32,000 nucleotides of DNA, from NCBI GenBank assembly GCA_016720745.1, contig JADKKA010000006.1, forward strand, positions 152,516-184,515, read 5' to 3'. Of the stretch, positions 7,812 through 20,037 are shown one piece after another (within the stretch, counting starts at the first letter, position 1; every line of letters begins with the position of its first letter). A program made the position numbers and the translations under genes. Source of the DNA: Chitinophagaceae bacterium. Lineage in GTDB: Bacteria; Bacteroidota; Bacteroidia; Chitinophagales; Chitinophagaceae. The notes below the pieces were generated by a model. It searched no databases and had not been told where the DNA came from. It was given only the letters and a program-made list of their open reading frames with translations.

Positions 7812-10169
7812 TCATGATGCTGTTTCCATGAAAACCTGTTTGCCTGTTTGATGGGTTGTTGTCTGACAGGGTGTTTTTTCCAATGCCAGTCTGGCCAGCA
7901 GGCAGCTTACCGTAGATTCGGCGCCCTGATTCAGGTTCACATTATTTTCTTCCAGTCCGTCATAGCAACCACCCGTACAGGGATTGTAGATGATCTGGTG
8001 AAGGTGATTCCTGCCGAGGAACCATTCATAAGCCAGGTTCATTTTATTTTTATATTCTTTGTCCCTGAAAACAGTAGAGAATTTCTTCAGTGCTAAAATG
8101 GTATAGGCCACATCAATGGGTTGTTCTCCTCCCTGCCATACCCTGGAAGATTCCCGGCCCTGGTGCAGCCAGCTGCTGTTGGAGATCACTTTGATGGCTC
8201 CATCAACAAATATTTTTGATAAGAGGAAGTCAAATGATTCCTTGGCTGTTTCCTTGTAAACCAGCTTTCCTGTTGCAAGCCAGGCACAGAGCATAGCTTC
8301 CGGCAGCAGACTGTTAGCATATGTGAGATAGCTTTCGTACCAGTGCCAGTTTTCTTTTTTTTCATGGCGGTACATTTGCAGCAAACGGTTGGCCAGTTCA
8401 ATGATGATGGCAATATCCTGTTCTCTCCTGGTTTCTTTATTGCGGTAATACAATCCTTTGATCACAAAAGCCATGGCACGGGTGGAGTGAATGGCCCCGG
8501 CATTCAATTGTGCGGATGACATCATGGCATCTGCCTCTTCAATGATCTGCAGGGGAAGGATATGTTCAAGGGAGAGCAGGTAACCCAGTGCCCAGATCGC
8601 CCTGCCATTGGCGTCGGCGAGATTCACTTCGTTATTCTGACCACTGAAAAAGCGCTCCTCTTTTACATAGTTCAGGAAATGCCCTTCGGGTTGCAGGCAG
8701 TATTTAATGAATTTAAAATAGATTTTAATGTAGGGAAGACCGGCGGTGTCACCGGTAAGTTCAAAATGCCGGCACATGGCCACCAATGCCCTTGCGTTAT
8801 CGTCCAGTGTATAACCGGATTGGATATCGGGCCGGTTGATCACAGAAAACTGGATCATTCCAAATGAAGTCGTCAGTTTTTTAAAGTGATCCAGGTTCAC
8901 GGGCGGAAGGGAATAGTGAAGCTGCAAATCTCCTTTGCATAATTGTTCAAATAATAATGCATGGGCAATGGCGGTATTTTCCCAGGCGGTGGAGGCTGTT
9001 TGCTGGATGCTGTTGATCCCTGTTTTTTCCCGGAGGGTATCATCTGTAAGTAAATCCACGATGGCCTTACTGAGCTGGGCTGCATTGCCAAAATCAAAGA
9101 TCACATTTCCTTCCTGGGGTAAAACCTCTTTCGCATGCGGAATAGGTGTTGAAATAATCGGGCATCCGCAACTGATGGCATAGGAGAAAGTACCGCTTAC
9201 GGTCTGGTTGGGATCCCGGGAGGAAAATATATAGATATCAGTAAGCTGTAAATAATCTAGTAGTTCTTCCAGTGGCAGGTAAGCATTAATAAAGCGAACA
9301 TGTTCGGTCAGGTTCAATGCTTTTGTTTTTGCTACCAGTGATTCCCGGTATCGTTCACCTTCATTACTGATTACACCGGGATGTGTTTTGCCAATGATCA
9401 GGAACAGTACATCAGGATCCAGTAATACAATGGCCGGTAAGGCCGATAAAGTGGTTTCGATACTTTTTCCGGCACTGAGTAATCCGAATGTAGACAGTAC
9501 TTTTCTTCCGGTCAGCCCGTATTTTTCTTTCAGTAGTTTTTTATCCTTATGTGGCACCAGGTGGGTGCCATGCGGAATCACAGTAATCTTTAAGGCCGGG
9601 ATAGAGTAGTGATGTACCAGCATTTCTTTTGAGTGCTGGGTCATTACAATGATGCCGGCCGCCGTTTTACAAATTTCCTTCACATTCTCCAGTAAGGCGG
9701 TATCCGGTTCTGGAAGTACAGTATGAAAAGTGATTAATACAGGCACCTGTAATGCATGCAGTAATTCATGCAGGGCTTTTTCCTGTTTGGCATAAAATCC
9801 AAATTCATGTTGCAGCAATACCAGGGAAACAGATGGATCATCCTGGATGGATTGATACAGGGCTTTATAGGAAGCCGGATCATCTGTTTGCAACCTGTAT
9901 TGAACTTCAGCAGGGTATTGGTGTTTTTCCACGGCTGTTTCCAGCGCGCAAATCTGCAGCCGGAAACCATGGTTGAATTTGTTTCCCAGCGCCTGTACCA
10001 GGTCCTGGGTATAGGTGGCAATACCGCATTGCCTGGGTGGGTAGGAGCTGATAAAAAGAATGACAGGTTGTGCCGTGCTGGAAATACTATCTCCGTTTTG
10101 CTGACCCCTGTGACTGGATTCCTGCATGAGTTGCCCGGCCTTATTGTATGGATTTTGTATTTTGTTCAT
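7812..10169 (-). CDS. Glycosyltransferase family 4 (group 1) fused to a C-terminal ~380-aa helical, alpha/alpha-toroid-like domain
   Basis: The N-terminal half carries GT4 hallmarks (ILFISSYPPRQCGIATYTQDL; C-terminal Rossmann half with IFSSRDPNQTVSGTFSYAISCGCPIISTPIPHAKE). The C-terminal half (from about aa 410) is helix-rich with spaced aromatic and acidic motifs (DDNARAL, NGRAIWALGYL, WYESYLTYANSLLPEA, NQGAEST), typical of six-hairpin glycan-binding or glycosidase folds. An alternative start at Met15 (10127) would remove the overlap with the upstream gene. Confidence 0.85.
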   Translation of the reverse strand: MNKIQNPYNKAGQLMQESSHRGQQNGDSISSTAQPVILFISSYPPRQCGIATYTQDLVQALGNKFNHGFRLQICALETAVEKHQYPAEVQYRLQTDDPASYKALYQSIQDDPSVSLVLLQHEFGFYAKQEKALHELLHALQVPVLITFHTVLPEPDTALLENVKEICKTAAGIIVMTQHSKEMLVHHYSIPALKITVIPHGTHLVPHKDKKLLKEKYGLTGRKVLSTFGLLSAGKSIETTLSALPAIVLLDPDVLFLIIGKTHPGVISNEGERYRESLVAKTKALNLTEHVRFINAYLPLEELLDYLQLTDIYIFSSRDPNQTVSGTFSYAISCGCPIISTPIPHAKEVLPQEGNVIFDFGNAAQLSKAIVDLLTDDTLREKTGINSIQQTASTAWENTAIAHALLFEQLCKGDLQLHYSLPPVNLDHFKKLTTSFGMIQFSVINRPDIQSGYTLDDNARALVAMCRHFELTGDTAGLPYIKIYFKFIKYCLQPEGHFLNYVKEERFFSGQNNEVNLADANGRAIWALGYLLSLEHILPLQIIEEADAMMSSAQLNAGAIHSTRAMAFVIKGLYYRNKETRREQDIAIIIELANRLLQMYRHEKKENWHWYESYLTYANSLLPEAMLCAWLATGKLVYKETAKESFDFLLSKIFVDGAIKVISNSSWLHQGRESSRVWQGGEQPIDVAYTILALKKFSTVFRDKEYKNKMNLAYEWFLGRNHLHQIIYNPCTGGCYDGLEENNVNLNQGAESTVSCLLARLALEKTPCQTTTHQTGKQVFMETAS

Positions 10170-16727: not shown

Positions 16728-16767
16728 CTCAACCACTCAACAACTCAACTACTCAACCTCTCAACTA
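16728..16767. repeat. Octanucleotide tandem array (CTCAACNN)x5 ending on the hflX stop codon
   Basis: CTCAACCA CTCAACAA CTCAACTA CTCAACCT CTCAACTA. The last three bases (16765-16767, CTA) are the reverse complement of the hflX TAG stop. Confidence 0.85.
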
Positions 16768-17955
16768 ATACAAAAACTCTGACTTATAAGGGTACCTCAC
16801 CCGATACATGGACCTTACTTTATCAAGAATTGATTTCCTTAGCTGATCAATATTCTTTTTTTCGAGGGCGGAAACAAAAACAGCATTGCCGCCTGTTTCA
16901 TGTTGCCAGCGTTCGTAGAGGTCTTCCAGGATTTCTTTTTTTGTATTTTCTTCCAGCCATTCGTCAAAGGTGTAGGCTTCGTAGAGATCCATTTTATTGA
17001 AGATGGTGAGCACTGGTTTGTCGTGGGCATCCAGTTCATGAAGGGTTTTATTCACCACAGCAATCTGTTCTTCATAAGCGGGATGGGATACATCCACTAC
17101 ATGCAGGAGGATATCTGATTCCCTTACTTCGTCAAGCGTGCTTTTAAAGCTTTCCACCAGGTGGTGAGGGAGTTTGCGGATAAAACCTACGGTGTCGCTC
17201 AAGAGAAACGGCGTGGTTTCAAAAACAACTTTACTGGTTGTTGTATCAAGTGTGGCGAATAATTTATTTTCGGCAAACACATCTCTTTTGCTCAGCAGGT
17301 TCATGATCGTGCTCTTGCCCACATTGGTATACCCTACAAGGGCTACCCTGATAAATTCTCCTCTTTCTTTACGCTGGGTGAAAGATTGTTTGTCAATTTC
17401 TGCCAGTCTTTTTCGCAGCAGTGATATTTTATCCCGGACAATCCTTCTGTCTGTTTCAATTTCTGTTTCGCCTGGTCCTCTGGTACCAATACCTCCGCCT
17501 AATCGTTCCAGGTGTTTCCACATGCCGCGGAGGCGGGGCAGGATATACTGGTATTGGGCCAGTTCCACCTGTGCCCGGGCCTGTGCGGTTTTAGCGCGGC
17601 TGGCGAAGATGTCGAGGATCAGGTCACTGCGGTCAATGGTTTTTATTTCCAGGGCTTTTTCAATATTGTTGATCTGTGCGCCGCTGAGTTCGTCATCAAA
17701 TATGATGATGCGGATATCACGGCCCTGAATATACTGGCGGATTTCTTCCAGTTTACCCTTGCCGACAAATGTACGGCTGTCGGGGTGCGGGAGTTTTTGT
17801 GTAAAGCGTTTAACGGCTACCGCGCCGGCGGTTTCGGCCAAAAAGGCGAGTTCGTCGAGGTATTCGTTGAGTTGTTGTTCGGTTTGGTCTTTGTGTACGA
17901 GACCGACTAAAACGGCTTTTTCTTCTTTTTGAATTTTCTTCTTGGTATCGAGCAT
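16765..17955 (-). CDS. hflX: GTPase HflX
   Basis: 396 aa with an N-terminal HflX domain (LDELAFLAETAGA, IIFDDELSGAQINNIE, TAQARAQVELAQ). G motifs are GYTNVGKST (G1), DTVGF (G3) and NKMD (G4). Confidence 0.95.
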   Translation of the reverse strand: MLDTKKKIQKEEKAVLVGLVHKDQTEQQLNEYLDELAFLAETAGAVAVKRFTQKLPHPDSRTFVGKGKLEEIRQYIQGRDIRIIIFDDELSGAQINNIEKALEIKTIDRSDLILDIFASRAKTAQARAQVELAQYQYILPRLRGMWKHLERLGGGIGTRGPGETEIETDRRIVRDKISLLRKRLAEIDKQSFTQRKERGEFIRVALVGYTNVGKSTIMNLLSKRDVFAENKLFATLDTTTSKVVFETTPFLLSDTVGFIRKLPHHLVESFKSTLDEVRESDILLHVVDVSHPAYEEQIAVVNKTLHELDAHDKPVLTIFNKMDLYEAYTFDEWLEENTKKEILEDLYERWQHETGGNAVFVSALEKKNIDQLRKSILDKVRSMYRVRYPYKSEFLY

Positions 17956-18220
17956 ATAGGGGTTCCTTCGGAGGGTAAAATTAGAGAATAGTGGGGTGGT
18001 GGGGGAATATTTTTTTTATTTATATAATTTTTTGGGGTGAGTAATGAGGTTACGAGGTTTTATTCAGCCTTACTGATATTATTTTCTTTTTTCTTGATAA
18101 AGTGGGACCAGATCTTACTGCCAGATTTTTACTGGCTACAAACTGATGTGCTATCACTATTTAAAAAGCAATTTTATTATTTTTTTGGAGACAAGGGCTT
18201 GAATTTGGAGGTAGCTTTTT

Positions 18221-18940
18221 TAAGAGTCTTTTCTCTACTTACTTTTTTTCTTGATAAAAAAAGTAACAAAAAAATCAAGACGGTTCGAAGCGGAATTTTC
18301 CGCTCTTGGGAAATTGCTGCAGACGAACCGTCGCCCGACGCTCAAAACTTTGCACGGACCTTAATGCGGTAAGTCTTATGCGTGATGTAGTTGAATACAT
18401 TACAGCGCTGATTTTTCGATCTCCGGCCTTATAGAAAACTGAGACGAAATCCAGATCGAAAAATAGGCGCTTGCAAAATTTTACTTTATTTGGAACTCAA
18501 AAGCTATCAGATGCCCTGGCCTTTTAGTTTCTCTCATCGAAGTGTAAAAAGGTTAAAATCTCTGTCCATACGGCCAACTGAAAAAAAACGGGGAAAGGAT
18601 CTTATATAGATTTAGGGCCATTGCTTTACCCTTTGTCTATTAAACAAAGCACTATTTCTTAAATCGGCTATGAGCTTTGAACATAATGAATTTCCATAGC
18701 GCCTATTTTTCGATTTGAACAACATCACAATTTTATACATCGCTGCAAATCGAAAAATCAGCGCAGTAGGATAACCCGCCAAATCACGCATGAAAAATCT
18801 GGCATTAAAGCCCGTGCCAGAGCTTACTTTCCGGGGGCCGGTTCGACTTCGGAAAATTCCAAAGAGAATGAATTTCCCTTTCGAACCGGCTTGATTTTTT
18901 GTTACTTTTTTATCAAGAAAAAAGTAAGGAAAGACTCTTA
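18221..18940. repeat. Imperfect ~720-bp palindrome: two inverted, diverged copies of a multi-hairpin non-coding module
   Basis: 18221-18290 matches the reverse complement of 18878-18940 apart from one 4-nt indel, three A/T-run length changes and a few substitutions. Homology islands continue inward to about 18470 and 18699, and the centre is mostly unique. Details are in the findings. Confidence 0.85.
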
Positions 18941-18979
18941 TTAGGAAAAAGTTTCGTTAGTTCAGCAGTACACTTCTAT

Positions 18980-19014
18980 TTACTTTTTTTATCAAGAAAA
19001 AAAGTAAGGAAAGA
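18980..19014. repeat. Extra copy of the AT-rich hairpin motif found at the palindrome ends
   Basis: TTACTTTTTTT ATCAAG AAAAAAAGTAA GGAAAGA (18980-19014) repeats 18902-18934 (TTACTTTTTT ATCAAG AAAAAAGTAA GGAAAGA). It is also the reverse complement of 18239-18266. Confidence 0.85.
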
Positions 19015-19071
19015 TTTCTTTCTTTACCAAAGACCAAATCATAACAACTTACTTCACATTTGTAAACTTGC

Positions 19072-19108
19072 AAAAAAAAACACAGCTGATGCAATCAGCT
19101 GTGTTTTT
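19072..19108. terminator. Bidirectional rho-independent terminator (ends the OMP gene on the minus strand)
   Basis: CACAGCTGAT (19081-19090) pairs with ATCAGCTGTG (19094-19103). It is flanked by A9 (19072-19080) and T5 (19104-19108), and lies 21 nt past the stop at 19129. Confidence 0.75.
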
Positions 19109-19128
19109 GATATCTTCTTTAAAAAATC

Positions 19129-19857
19129 TTACAACCCACTCAATGTAATCCCAATACTAAACGGCCTTACCACAGGTCCAAAACCATCTTTAAACAATGG
19201 TGTTAACTGGTAACTGCCATATAAACTCACATGGCCATAGCCGATCCGCCCCTGCATACTGATCCTGTTCTTATTGAAGAAATATTTACTGGACTCTTTT
19301 AAAGTATGATCAGCAATGGTAGCAGAAGTACTGCTTTCATACTTGGTATTGCGGGTATGGGCATTAATCAGTAACCCAACCTTCACACCAATCGCCGCCT
19401 TCAGGCCCTTGCCATGTAAAGGATCGGAAGAAAAGCGAAACTCGATCGGAGCTTCCGCATATACCGTGGCCAGTTTGGTTTTTTTATAATTGTTGGTATC
19501 AGAAACATTGGTGAACTGAATCGTACTGGTATTTCTTTTGATGCCCACATCTGTTTGGGAGAACACAATATGATCACTGGCAATACCAGGTCCAAAGGCC
19601 ATACTCAGCTTCGGATTGGTTTTGAAAGGAAAATCCAAAAGGAAATAAACATTAAAACTTTTAGAGAAACCCGATTTATTGATCGTGTCCGGAATCCCGG
19701 CCCAACCGGTATATCCAAACTGGAGCATGAAGTGATCGCTGGGACGATTACTCATATCAATGTTCTGTTTCTTCTTCTTGTCGGTCTGGGGATTGTTCTG
19801 TGCCATCGCAGCAAATCCAAGACATAGTAATACGGGGACGATCAGCGTTTTCTTCAT
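19129..19857 (-). CDS. Outer-membrane beta-barrel protein (porin-family / OmpA-beta-barrel-like)
   Basis: Signal peptide MKKTLIVPVLLCLGFAAMAQ. Amphipathic beta-strands alternate throughout, ending in the aromatic-rich SLYGSYQLTPLF...FSIGITLSGL. Confidence 0.75.
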   Translation of the reverse strand: MKKTLIVPVLLCLGFAAMAQNNPQTDKKKKQNIDMSNRPSDHFMLQFGYTGWAGIPDTINKSGFSKSFNVYFLLDFPFKTNPKLSMAFGPGIASDHIVFSQTDVGIKRNTSTIQFTNVSDTNNYKKTKLATVYAEAPIEFRFSSDPLHGKGLKAAIGVKVGLLINAHTRNTKYESSTSATIADHTLKESSKYFFNKNRISMQGRIGYGHVSLYGSYQLTPLFKDGFGPVVRPFSIGITLSGL

Positions 19858-19963
19858 AAGTCTCGTTAAGGGCGCAAATATATTTTTCTTTGGGTTAAAG
19901 ATTGGTTAATAAGGAGTAATAATTATTATTTTACTAATTTCGCCCCCTTGAGCACACCGCTCA

Positions 19964-20037
19964 GGACCCTTAGCTCAGACGGTTAGAGCATCTGACTCAT
20001 AATCAGAGGGTCGTTGGTTCGATCCCAACAGGGTCCA
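19964..20037 (+). tRNA. tRNA with CAT anticodon; its features favour tRNA-Ile2 (lysidine type) over elongator tRNA-Met
   Basis: Hand-folded cloverleaf: acceptor GGACCCT/AGGGTCC, D arm GCTC/GAGC, anticodon stem TCTGA/TCAGA with loop CTCATAA, T arm GTTGG-TTCGATC-CCAAC, discriminator A, and no encoded CCA. It lacks the initiator GGG/CCC anticodon stem. C4:G69 and C5:G68, plus overall similarity to E. coli ileX as I remember it, suggest Ile2. Confidence 0.93.

What the first reader, a model, noticed from the sequence alone, without database searches (positions are those of the whole stretch)
18279..18890. Hairpin stems are conserved between the two arms while their loops are unrelated but equal in length (34 nt); one base pair shows a compensatory change
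**16-mer hairpins**
- Each arm holds a hairpin of two 16-mers: GCGCTGATTTTTCGAT (18405-18420) with ATCGAAAAATAGGCGC (18455-18470) on the left, and GCGCCTATTTTTCGAT (18699-18714) with ATCGAAAAATCAGCGC (18749-18764) on the right.
- All four 16-mers are preserved exactly between the arms.
- The two 34-nt loops (18421-18454 and 18715-18748) share no similarity.
- Local pairing is 14/16, with one mismatch and one T-G. The long-range pairings 18405-18420/18749-18764 and 18455-18470/18699-18714 are 16/16.

**GGTTCGA hairpins**
- The left arm has GACGGTTCG (18279-18287) paired with CGAACCGTC (18324-18332).
- The right arm has GCCGGTTCGA (18837-18846) paired with TCGAACCGGC (18881-18890), again with a 34-nt loop.
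- The A-T pair on the left is replaced by a C-G pair on the right, so both strands of the stem changed together.

Conserved stems, a compensatory change and divergent loops of fixed length argue for selection on structure, or on four 16-bp protein-binding boxes, rather than a decaying duplication.
Basis: seen in the sequence. Interest (0 to 1): 0.7.

Follow-up and report, generated by a model that had tools for sequence, protein, structure and literature searches.

The report
Paired-hairpin repeat element in Chitinophagaceae
The hairpins belong to a roughly 690-base non-coding cassette, present in many copies in a few wastewater Chitinophagaceae bacteria, whose hairpin stems are kept by natural selection; it most likely encodes two outward-facing small RNAs and matches no described RNA family.

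Summary
The four 16-mers are exact, and both hairpin types exist. The stems are under selection. Two details are wrong. The two 34-nt loops are drifted homologues: 19/34 bases match once one loop is reverse-complemented. The left GGTTCG hairpin has 9 bp and a 36-nt loop.

The region is one copy (window 18238-18928) of a multi-copy, non-coding cassette. It has an L-type arm, a 211-bp asymmetric centre and an R-type arm in inverted orientation.

At least 14 elements were found in one Chitinophagaceae MAG and in metagenome contigs. A single diverged arm occurs in Flavisolibacter.

Species whose HflX is 89-93% identical have an empty site at this position.

Between orthologous copies, synonymous sites are 58% identical. 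The 16-mers are 64/64 identical and the terminal hairpins 93-94%. The P1 loops are 62-71% identical, with no indels.

Covariation supports both hairpins and an AT-rich end hairpin.

Outward-facing T-runs, two independent GC-hairpin insertions in front of them, and promoter-like TTTG motifs in the centre point to two divergently transcribed, paralogous ~210-240-nt sRNAs. Transcription itself is not shown.

There is no Rfam match. It is a candidate new sRNA or repeat family of moderate interest.

The parts
18238..18928 (.). One complete copy of the repeat element: L arm, asymmetric centre, R arm.
   Evidence: Full-length, collinear alignment to six other copies at 74-82% identity. nhmmer finds two divergent arms here and in 13 other places, always 210-215 bp apart.
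18238..18479 (-). L-type arm, the proposed outward sRNA gene 1. Read on the minus strand: P1 hairpin, conserved middle, terminal hairpin, T-run, AT hairpin.
   Evidence: nhmmer E = 8e-71. L arms form their own clade: L-L identity 0.80 against L-R 0.67.
18690..18928 (+). R-type arm, the proposed outward sRNA gene 2, with the same order of parts on the plus strand.
   Evidence: nhmmer E = 7e-73. R-R identity 0.79.
18405..18470 (-). P1 hairpin of the L arm: two 16-mers plus a 17th pair, a conserved 2x2 internal loop and a 34-nt loop.
   Evidence: Covariation at pairs 10/64, 17/57 and 20/54. The loop is 34 nt in 25 of 26 arms.
18699..18764 (+). P1 hairpin of the R arm.
18279..18332 (-). Terminal G+C-rich hairpin of the L arm (GACGGTTCG / CGAACCGTC, 36-nt conserved loop).
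   Evidence: 99.6% paired across 29 arms. Pair 148/191 occurs as UA 20, GC 5, AU 2, CG 1. 93% identical to the orthologue.
18837..18890 (+). Terminal G+C-rich hairpin of the R arm (GCCGGTTCGA / TCGAACCGGC).
   Evidence: 94% identical to the orthologue.
18267..18278 (-). T-run after the L terminal hairpin (TTGATTTTTTTG on the minus strand): proposed terminator tail.
   Evidence: In four other L arms the palindrome CCCGATAGCTATCGGG is inserted immediately before this T-run.
18891..18901 (+). T-run after the R terminal hairpin (TTGATTTTTTG): proposed terminator tail.
   Evidence: One R arm (L121, starting at 8560) carries a different GC palindrome, CCTGCCTGCCGGCAGGCAGG, at this same position.
18239..18266 (.). 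AT-rich end hairpin of the L arm (TTACTTTTTTT-CTTGAT-AAAAAAAGTAA).
   Evidence: 3 matches against 0 expected. Compensatory variants occur in other copies: TTACTTTTTGG/CCAAAAAGTAA and TTTCTTTTTTGT/ACAAAAAAGAAA. 98% identical to the orthologue.
18902..18927 (.). AT-rich end hairpin of the R arm.
18480..18689 (.). Asymmetric centre of constant length, the proposed divergent promoter region. On the minus strand, TTTG lies at 18501-18498 and TTTG at 18477-18474 ahead of the L arm. On the plus strand, GAATTTCC lies at 18688-18695 ahead of the R arm.
   Evidence: The spacing between arms is 210-215 bp in all 14 pairs. Conserved islands are seen. There is no consensus RNA fold. The promoter reading is inferred from the Bacteroidota -33/-7 consensus, which I hold from general knowledge. 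It was not tested.
18980..19007 (.). Solo copy of the AT-rich end hairpin in the right flank, probably the remnant of a neighbouring tandem copy. A partial copy lies at 18083-18101.
   Evidence: Tandem arrays and truncated copies are seen in L035, L121 and L122.
17990..19128 (.). The roughly 1.1-kb inserted intergenic block between the OMP gene stop and the conserved hflX leader. It is absent from relatives. The left boundary is approximate.
   Evidence: The empty sites in L129, L130, L131 and L134 have only about 40-76 bp here.

Best explanation
The finding is one copy of a lineage-specific, non-coding cassette kept by host-level selection. The cassette most likely carries two paralogous structured small-RNA genes, transcribed outwards from a shared 211-bp central promoter region.

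Each proposed RNA is about 210-240 nt and has this layout:
- It starts at or within a few bases of a 5' hairpin, P1. P1 has a 17-bp stem of nearly invariant sequence, a conserved 2x2 internal loop and a 34-nt loop. The loop is free in sequence but fixed in length.
- It continues through a sequence-conserved, apparently unpaired middle of about 70 nt.
- It ends in a G+C-rich hairpin followed by a U-run and an AU-rich hairpin.

The invariant stem sequence and the fixed geometry suggest that P1 is a docking site for a protein.

The cassette spreads as a whole unit, by tandem duplication and rare insertion at new intergenic sites. Truncated copies decay.

**Shown:** the family, its anatomy, insertion polymorphism, purifying selection, hairpin covariation and absence of coding capacity.

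**Inferred:** transcription, the transcribed strand, the promoters, protein binding, and any target or function.
For: **Family and anatomy**
- Fourteen L/R arm pairs have a constant 210-215 bp centre.
- 29 distinct arms are aligned in A6.
- Every complete element has one L-type and one R-type arm, and there is no conversion between them.

**Selection at a resident locus**
- Four-fold degenerate sites are 58% identical.
- The 16-mers are 100% identical, the terminal hairpins 93-94% and the ends 92-98%.
- The P1 loops are 62-71% identical.

**Indel-free evolution**
- The P1 loop is 34 nt in 25 of 26 arms.
- The distance from P1 to the terminal hairpin is 192 nt in 22 of 26 arms.

**A folded single strand**
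- Compensatory changes in both hairpins exceed all 500 shuffles and all slid registers.
- They include within-family singletons: G-C to A-U in L119, A-U to U-G and UU/AA to CG/CG in L133.
- The AT hairpin also has compensatory variants.

**Outward strand**
- A T-run follows the terminal hairpin on the outward strand only.
- Two unrelated GC palindromes were inserted independently just before that T-run.
- The only two one-step wobble states seen in the stems are U-G on the outward strand.
- Tandem copies are only 52-90 bp apart, which leaves no room for inward promoters.
- Truncated copies, and the Flavisolibacter homologue, keep one arm plus its centre-proximal side.
- TTTG...TTTG motifs resembling the Bacteroidota -33/-7 boxes lie just upstream of L-arm P1.

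**Exclusions**
- No frame is open in most arms.
- There is no Rfam match.
- A precedent for multi-copy paralogous sRNAs in Bacteroidota exists: FopS (PMC11697453).
Against: - There is no expression data, so transcription is an inference.
- The promoter-like motifs are imperfect. The spacer is about 16 nt, whereas I recall about 19 nt as typical. The R arm has TTTC instead of TTTG, and the motif is absent upstream of the Flavisolibacter arm.
- The inward strand folds slightly better: in 22 of 26 arms overall and 25 of 26 for P1. This stems from one shared feature, the internal loop.
- The terminal hairpin has a very large loop and a 4-nt gap before the U-run, so it is an atypical terminator.
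- The AU hairpin lies beyond the proposed 3' end yet still covaries.
- A 34-nt loop that drifts in sequence but never changes length is unusual for an RNA. It would fit a DNA spacing constraint equally well.
- The 70-nt middle and the inner loop helices show no covariation.
Confidence: 0.45

Rival explanations
1. It is a DNA-level cis element. The four 16-bp boxes, and perhaps the GGTTCG half-sites and the AT palindromes, are binding sites for a protein or protein complex. Their spacing is fixed (boxes 50 bp apart start to start, centre 211 bp), for example to organise or repress two divergent promoters or to form an architectural nucleoprotein complex. The spacers are free in sequence but locked in length.
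For: - Lengths are exactly conserved although the loop sequence is near neutral.
- The boxes are conserved in sequence, not merely in pairing.
- The boxes occur nowhere else in the window or in the related loci.
- The outer four GCGC pairs never vary.
- In Flavisolibacter both boxes carry the same 1-nt insertion. Co-evolution with a binding protein could produce that.
Against: - Single copies within one lineage change both paired positions together, as in L119 and L133, while the presumed protein stays the same.
- The two boxes of one arm always differ at the same two positions, giving a conserved mismatch. This is expected for a folded hairpin and not for equivalent half-sites.
- No DNA-binding protein gene is linked to any copy.
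Confidence: 0.2
2. It is a non-autonomous mobile element: a foldback or MITE-like element with long inverted arms. The hairpins are recognised, as double-stranded or folded single-stranded DNA, by a transposase or recombinase encoded elsewhere in the genome.
For: - It is multi-copy and intergenic, with no coding capacity, inverted arms and hairpins at both termini.
- It is absent from the same site in relatives.
- Tandem and truncated copies exist.
- Short-read contigs break at it.
- The L133 locus has an R-type arm where the window has an L-type arm. This suggests a second insertion or an inversion.
Against: - Resident orthologous copies are under strong purifying selection, which a selfish element does not receive once it is inserted.
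- No target-site duplication could be defined.
- No transposase lies near any copy.
- The most conserved parts lie at the inner ends of the arms, not at the tips.
- Copies are 74-82% identical, so there has been no recent burst.
- There are no hits in phage, plasmid or viral collections.
- Mobility and an RNA function are not mutually exclusive.
Confidence: 0.2
3. It is a decaying inverted duplication with no function. The identical 16-mers are chance survivors or products of recent gene conversion.
For: The two arms are only about 66-75% identical overall, and the loops have drifted.
Against: - 64/64 box positions are identical between orthologues whose neutral sites are 58% identical.
- The boxes are kept in 29 arms and recognisably in another genus.
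- There is covariation.
- There is no excess similarity between the arms of one element.
Confidence: 0.02
4. It is an invertible promoter switch (inverton) of the Bacteroidota type. The exact 16-bp inverted repeats would be recombination sites, and the centre would flip between them.
For: There are perfect long-range inverted 16-mers around a promoter-like centre, and the phylum is rich in invertons (the phylum background is my own knowledge).
Against: - In all 14 elements the centre has the same orientation relative to the L-type and R-type outer arm parts.
- Four independent assemblies of the window locus agree in orientation.
- No recombinase gene is nearby.
- The arms are far longer than inverton repeats.
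Confidence: 0.03

Closest known systems
FopS / GibS multi-copy paralogous sRNAs of Bacteroides (PMC11697453)
   Same: Both are Bacteroidota, with a dozen or so dispersed, mostly intergenic non-coding paralogues per genome. Each copy is a unit with its own promoter and a 3' terminator hairpin. Sequence blocks are conserved across paralogues. Spread by duplication or mobile DNA has been proposed.
   Different: - FopS RNAs have a single-stranded 5' seed followed by a terminator. Here the 5' end is a long, invariant hairpin with a 34-nt loop.
- This RNA would be about twice as long.
- The genes here come as obligatory divergent L/R pairs.
- There is no sequence or Rfam match.
- Expression, RbpB binding and targets are unknown here.
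MITEs and other structured intergenic repeats (Correia elements of Neisseria, BOX/RUP, ERIC, the Porphyromonas gingivalis MITE of PMC4596501)
   Same: All are non-coding, multi-copy, intergenic units with inverted arms that can fold. They show presence/absence polymorphism. Some members are known to carry promoters or terminators (the last point is my own knowledge).
   Different: - The arms here are about 240 bp and only 66% alike, with fixed L and R identities.
- No target-site duplication or parent IS was found.
- Resident copies are under purifying selection with covarying stems.
- Lengths are conserved exactly.
Subterminal hairpins of IS200/IS605 elements and their PATE derivatives
   Same: Both have imperfect hairpins with conserved mismatches near the element ends, and TTAC and TTGAT motifs close to the ends. 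The target motifs of IS608 and ISDra2 are recalled from my own knowledge.
   Different: - In that family both hairpins are read on the same strand and the element is not inverted-symmetric. Here the mismatch-defined strand flips between the arms.
- The loops there are a few nucleotides long, not 34.
- No TnpA or TnpB gene was seen.
Bacteroidota invertible promoters (invertons)
   Same: Exact inverted repeats flank a promoter-like intergenic segment in the same phylum.
   Different: No orientation polymorphism was seen in 14 elements. There is no adjacent recombinase. The repeats here are parts of 240-bp structured arms.

Membership tests
Any Rfam 15 RNA family | A covariance-model match at or above the family's gathering score. 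| tested here: not met
   The only hit at gathering threshold in the window is tRNA-Met at 19964-20037. A permissive scan of 17900-19200 gave only sub-threshold chance hits.
Multi-copy paralogous sRNA family (FopS-like) | Several dispersed non-coding paralogues per genome. | tested here: met
   At least 6.5 copies at three places in MAG JADJDJ01, and more on metagenome contigs.
Multi-copy paralogous sRNA family (FopS-like) | Each copy is transcribed from its own promoter. | not testable with these tools
   Only motif-level hints are available (TTTG...TTTG before L arms, GAATTTCC before R arms). There is no RNA data.
Multi-copy paralogous sRNA family (FopS-like) | A Rho-independent terminator at the 3' end. 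| tested here: inconclusive
   On the outward strand a G+C hairpin is followed by TTGATTTTTTG. Canonical GC hairpins were inserted there in five arms. The native hairpin has a 34-36-nt loop, and the simple terminator scan did not call it.
Multi-copy paralogous sRNA family (FopS-like) | A single-stranded 5' seed shared by the paralogues. | tested here: not met
   The 5' part is the P1 hairpin. The conserved unpaired stretch lies in the middle instead.
MITE / foldback non-autonomous transposon | Terminal inverted repeats, no coding capacity, many copies. | tested here: met
MITE / foldback non-autonomous transposon | Presence/absence at orthologous sites. | tested here: met
   The site is filled in the window, L125, L126, L128 and L133. 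It is empty in L129, L130, L131 and L134.
MITE / foldback non-autonomous transposon | Target-site duplication at the ends. | tested here: inconclusive
   The empty and filled sites are too diverged to align base by base. The insert also includes extra repeat modules.
MITE / foldback non-autonomous transposon | A related autonomous element with matching ends. | not testable with these tools
   No transposase lies near any copy. Whole genomes could not be scanned.
Inverton (invertible promoter) | Both orientations of the segment between the repeats occur. | tested here: not met
   All 14 elements and four assemblies of this locus have the same internal orientation.
IS200/IS605-type ends (PATE) | Left-end and right-end hairpins are read on the same strand. 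| tested here: not met
   The conserved mismatch pattern sits on opposite strands in the two arms.
Chromosomal replication origin | A cluster of DnaA boxes. | tested here: not met
   There are no TTATCCACA-like boxes in the region. The window holds 3 one-mismatch matches against 10 expected.
Protein-coding gene or small ORF | An open frame conserved among copies. | tested here: not met
   The best frame is stop-free in only 11 of 26 arms. A 35-codon frame in some R arms is broken in others.

The most novel reading that the evidence does not exclude
The cassette could be a new class of host-domesticated, self-duplicating regulatory module in Chitinophagaceae. In this reading it makes an obligatory pair of distinct structured RNAs, L and R. 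Their invariant, mismatch-bearing 5' hairpins with length-locked 34-nt loops would dock a dedicated, still unknown protein. Alternatively the same hairpins could act as folded DNA. Either way it would be a ribonucleoprotein or nucleoprotein system with no described counterpart.
Probability: 0.2. Interest if true: 0.7.

Novelty: new variant of a known kind. Interest (0 to 1): 0.5.

Why it matters
If the arms are transcribed, this is an undescribed family of structured small RNAs in Chitinophagaceae. This group is abundant in activated sludge and soil, and almost nothing is known about its RNA regulation.

The element has an unusual signature. Stem sequences are invariant, loops drift but keep their length, L and R partners are fixed, and resident copies are selected. 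That signature points to a specific protein partner and makes the element a well-defined target for experiments.

It also shows how a non-coding cassette can insert between two housekeeping genes (the OMP gene and hflX) and then be retained.

In practice, the element breaks short-read assemblies in these genomes.

Tried and rejected
- **Rfam.** Scans at gathering and at permissive thresholds found nothing relevant. ARAGORN found only tRNA-Met.
- **Replication origin.** No DnaA boxes are present.
- **Protein coding.** No frame is conserved. A small ORF in the centre and a 35-codon frame in some R arms are not conserved.
- **Structure in the centre.** Only weak consensus folds were found on either strand.
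- **Extra helices.** No covarying helices were found in the middle of the arm. The inner GGAAA/TTTCC helix is only 80.7% paired with no covariation.
- **Linked genes.** Neighbours differ at every locus: hflX, mnmE, TonB_C, peptidases, a Bro-N/P63C phage-like gene and a metallo-beta-lactamase-fold gene. The mnmE neighbour in L010 is not an hflX orthologue.
- **Phage or plasmid origin.** There are no matches beyond the AT-rich end in two Cytophagales plasmids, one of which lies between cas genes. This was judged to be low-complexity similarity.
- **First genome-wide pattern.** It was too loose.
- **RNA-guided transcription.** A link to dCas12f/sigma-E systems (PMC13472631) was considered because an ECF sigma/FecR/SusCD locus is adjacent. 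No dCas12f gene is present, and the ECF sigma pairs with an ordinary FecR.
- **Literature.** A search for the box sequences found nothing relevant.
- **Strand choice by folding energy.** The result is not independent across arms, because it comes from the shared internal loop.

Full report
**1. Setting**

The finding lies in a 1,173-bp gap with no plausible gene.
- On one side is an hflX-type GTPase gene (16765-17955, minus strand). On the other is an OMP_b-brl_2 outer-membrane protein gene (19129-19857, minus strand).
- Further along are tRNA-Met and an ECF sigma/FecR/SusC/SusD locus.
- The organism is a Chitinophagaceae bacterium. HflX is 100% identical to proteins labelled as coming from Chitinophagaceae MAGs.

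**2. The observation**

The four 16-mers are exactly as described. Each long-range pair is a perfect reverse complement. The pattern occurs 4 times in the window, against 0.21 expected. Both P1 loops are 34 nt.

Two details need correction.
- The loops are not unrelated. In the inverted register they share 19/34 bases (p = 5e-5). Only the direct comparison gives 8/34.
- The left GGTTCG hairpin has 9 bp and a 36-nt loop. The right one has 10 bp and a 34-nt loop. Their loops share 23/36 bases.

**3. What the region is**

The span 18238-18928 is an imperfect inverted duplication with blocks of high conservation.

It is one copy of a repeated element.
- A loose pattern scan of species-representative genomes found six and a half further copies. 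They lie at three places in one Chitinophagaceae MAG from activated sludge (JADJDJ01), and two and a half of them are in tandem.
- A stricter scan of metagenomes found nine contigs. Two of them are the window locus itself, at 98.5-99.2% identity.
- A profile of the arm finds 14 pairs of divergent arms. Their starts are always 210-215 bp apart.
- Full-length copies align collinearly in only one orientation, at 74-82% identity. The element therefore has polarity.

Each complete element has an L-type arm, an asymmetric centre and an R-type arm.
- L and R arms form separate clades: L-L identity 0.80, R-R 0.79, L-R 0.67.
- Arms of the same element are no more alike (0.66) than arms of different elements. 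There is no gene conversion between arms, and the unit duplicates as a whole.

A single diverged arm occurs in a Flavisolibacter MAG, a different genus (nhmmer E = 2e-15). It has the same order of parts:
- an AT hairpin;
- a GCGGGTTCG/CGAACCCGC hairpin;
- the middle;
- P1, with a 3x3 internal loop and a 31-nt loop.

Nothing similar exists in the phage, plasmid or viral collections. No Rfam family matches.

**4. It is an insertion**

- In four relatives with HflX 89-93% identical, the OMP gene is followed within about 40-76 bp by hflX. Only a small GC hairpin lies between them.
- The window and L128 (HflX 97% identical) have about 1.17 kb there.
- A 95% relative, L133, has an R-type arm facing hflX where the window has an L-type arm. 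Its contig ends inside the element.
- Besides the element, the insert contains solo copies of the AT-rich end hairpin. These are probably relics of neighbouring tandem copies.
- No target-site duplication could be defined.

**5. It is under selection**

The window and L128 carry orthologous copies. The table gives identities.

| Part compared | Identity |
|---|---|
| Four-fold degenerate sites of hflX and the OMP gene (n = 253) | 58% |
| The four 16-mers | 64/64 |
| Terminal hairpins, including their loops | 93-94% |
| T-run plus AT hairpin | 92-98% |
| Arm middles | 79% |
| P1 loops | 62-71% |
| Centre (with conserved islands) | 66% |

- The arms contain no indel, whereas the flanks and the centre do.
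- Across 26 arms the P1 loop is 34 nt in 25. The distance from the start of P1 to the end of the terminal hairpin is 192 nt in 22 and 191 nt in 4.
- This is not a coding constraint. No frame is open in most arms.

**6. Hairpins are real**

These counts come from 29 arms.
- P1 is 99.3% paired and the terminal hairpin 99.6% paired.
- Six pairs changed on both sides. 30 cells carry double changes, against 9.5 ± 1.9 in shuffles.
- No shuffle and no slid register reaches the observed covariation.
- Examples in P1: U-A to C-G at the 17th pair in five arms; G-C to A-U in L119; A-U to U-G in L133.
- Examples in the terminal hairpin: pair 148/191 occurs as UA 20, GC 5, AU 2 and CG 1. In L133 two adjacent U-A pairs became C-G and G-C.
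- The AT-rich end hairpin also has compensatory variants.
- The 2x2 mismatch in P1 is itself conserved.
- The inner helix of the terminal loop and the arm middle show no covariation.
- The paired changes occur in single copies, while all other copies in the lineage keep the consensus. This favours a folded single strand over equivalent double-stranded protein boxes.

**7. Which strand**

Both strands fold well (z = -3.7 to -5.5). The inward strand is slightly more stable in most arms. That comes from one shared feature: the internal loop reads U-G/G-A on that strand.

The signals favour the outward strand.
- The terminal hairpin is followed by TTGATTTTTTG only on the outward strand.
- Four L arms carry CCCGATAGCTATCGGG, and one R arm carries the unrelated CCTGCCTGCCGGCAGGCAGG. 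Both are inserted exactly in front of that T-run, which makes canonical terminators.
- The two one-step wobble states seen in the stems are U-G on the outward strand.
- Tandem copies are only 52-90 bp apart.
- Truncated copies, and the Flavisolibacter homologue, keep one arm with its centre-proximal flank.
- L arms are preceded by TTTG, then about 16 nt, then AAATTTTG, ending 3 nt before P1. This resembles the Bacteroidota -33/-7 promoter, which I know from general background. The tRNA-Met gene in the window has a similar TAATTTCG box.
- The R-arm motif (GAATTTCC) is weaker. The exact promoter pattern is not enriched in the window.

**8. Interpretation**

The best-supported model is a host-retained cassette of two divergently transcribed, paralogous structured sRNAs. 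Each begins with the invariant P1 hairpin and ends at the terminal hairpin and U-run.

The invariant stem sequence, the conserved mismatch and the length-locked loop suggest a protein partner. Function and targets are unknown.

Flanking genes differ at every locus and are oriented either way. The arms are therefore not leaders of particular genes.

The rivals are:
- a DNA-level protein-binding architecture, which the fixed spacings would suit;
- a MITE-like or foldback mobile element, which fits the insertion polymorphism but not the selection on resident copies;
- an inverton (no orientation variants were seen);
- a decaying duplication (refuted).

Mobility and RNA function may both be true.

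**9. Comparison with known systems**

- The closest functional analogue is the FopS/GibS multi-copy sRNA family of Bacteroides (PMC11697453). It shares copy number and the self-contained unit, but differs in structure, size and pairing.
- The element resembles MITEs in distribution and IS200/IS605 ends in having imperfect hairpins. It fails defining features of both, as set out in the membership table.

I rate it a new variant of a known kind: a candidate structured sRNA or intergenic repeat family. It has unusual architecture and narrow taxonomic range, and its interest is moderate.

Noticed in passing
L002, L012, L016, L022, L030 and about 40 further loci (Nitrosomonas halophila, Nitrosomonas sp. 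ANs5, Endozoicomonas, Methylococcales and other Gammaproteobacteria MAGs): This is a highly repeated palindromic element of about 150 nt, starting AGAATAGCGATCGTAGCGAGGGCGAAGC...GGGATTTTTCGAT, followed by a conserved 37-nt loop and then ATCGAAAAATCC... It shares only the 10-nt core with the window's hairpin. Its loops are conserved and its stem continues outwards. It looks like a separate MITE or REP-like family spread across several proteobacterial orders.
   Followed up: partly
L017:7360-7700 (Flavisolibacter sp. MAG DATMIF01): A single, diverged arm of the family sits between two convergent genes. One of them ends ...EAYISIEEFCAFTGLREERVAAFLT and looks like a small DNA-binding or excisionase-type protein. 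The arm's tail (AT hairpin plus the first half of the terminal hairpin) is duplicated in tandem.
   Followed up: partly
window 17956-18015: The roughly 55 nt just upstream of the hflX start codon (ATATTCCCCCACCACCCCACTATTCTCTAATTTTACCCTCCGAAGGAACCCCT) are 100% identical between the window and L128, although neutral sites are 58% identical. Relatives without the insert have a CCCCCC...GGGGGG hairpin there instead. This may be a constrained hflX leader.
   Followed up: no
window 18792-18896 (plus strand) and the equivalent part of other R arms: A stop-free frame of about 35 codons (MKNLALKPVPE...FPFEPA) runs through the R-arm middle and terminal hairpin in several copies. It lacks a start or is interrupted in others, and it is absent from L arms. 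It was judged accidental.
   Followed up: yes
L010:1612-1650, L035:1100-1130, L111:1672-1700, L121:8790-8819: Short GC-rich perfect palindromes (CCCGATAGCTATCGGG; CCTGCCTGCCGGCAGGCAGG) are inserted at exactly the same position of different arms. A similar CCTGCCGGCAGGCAGGCAGG follows the end of element L035a. They may be small mobile terminator-like palindromes of these genomes.
   Followed up: partly
window 19076-19108: A strong symmetric terminator (AAAAACACAGCTGAT-GCA-ATCAGCTGTGTTTTT) lies right after the OMP gene. It belongs to the inserted block. It replaces the ancestral arrangement, in which a single hairpin lay between the OMP gene and hflX.
   Followed up: partly
L132:1-127, L133:1-20, L119:1-160: Short-read contigs of related strains end inside or right next to the element. 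It therefore acts as an assembly-breaking repeat in these genomes.
   Followed up: no
window about 19860-19960: Gene orientation and AT skew switch sign here: minus-strand genes lie to the left and plus-strand genes to the right. No DnaA boxes are present. This is probably just a divergent gene boundary at the tRNA-Met gene.
   Followed up: partly
L129:5485-7199: In the 92% relative with an empty site, a tyrosine integrase, an HNH endonuclease and a type I restriction-modification gene lie just downstream of the hflX/Rieske genes. This neighbourhood is therefore a hotspot for inserted DNA in the lineage.
   Followed up: no
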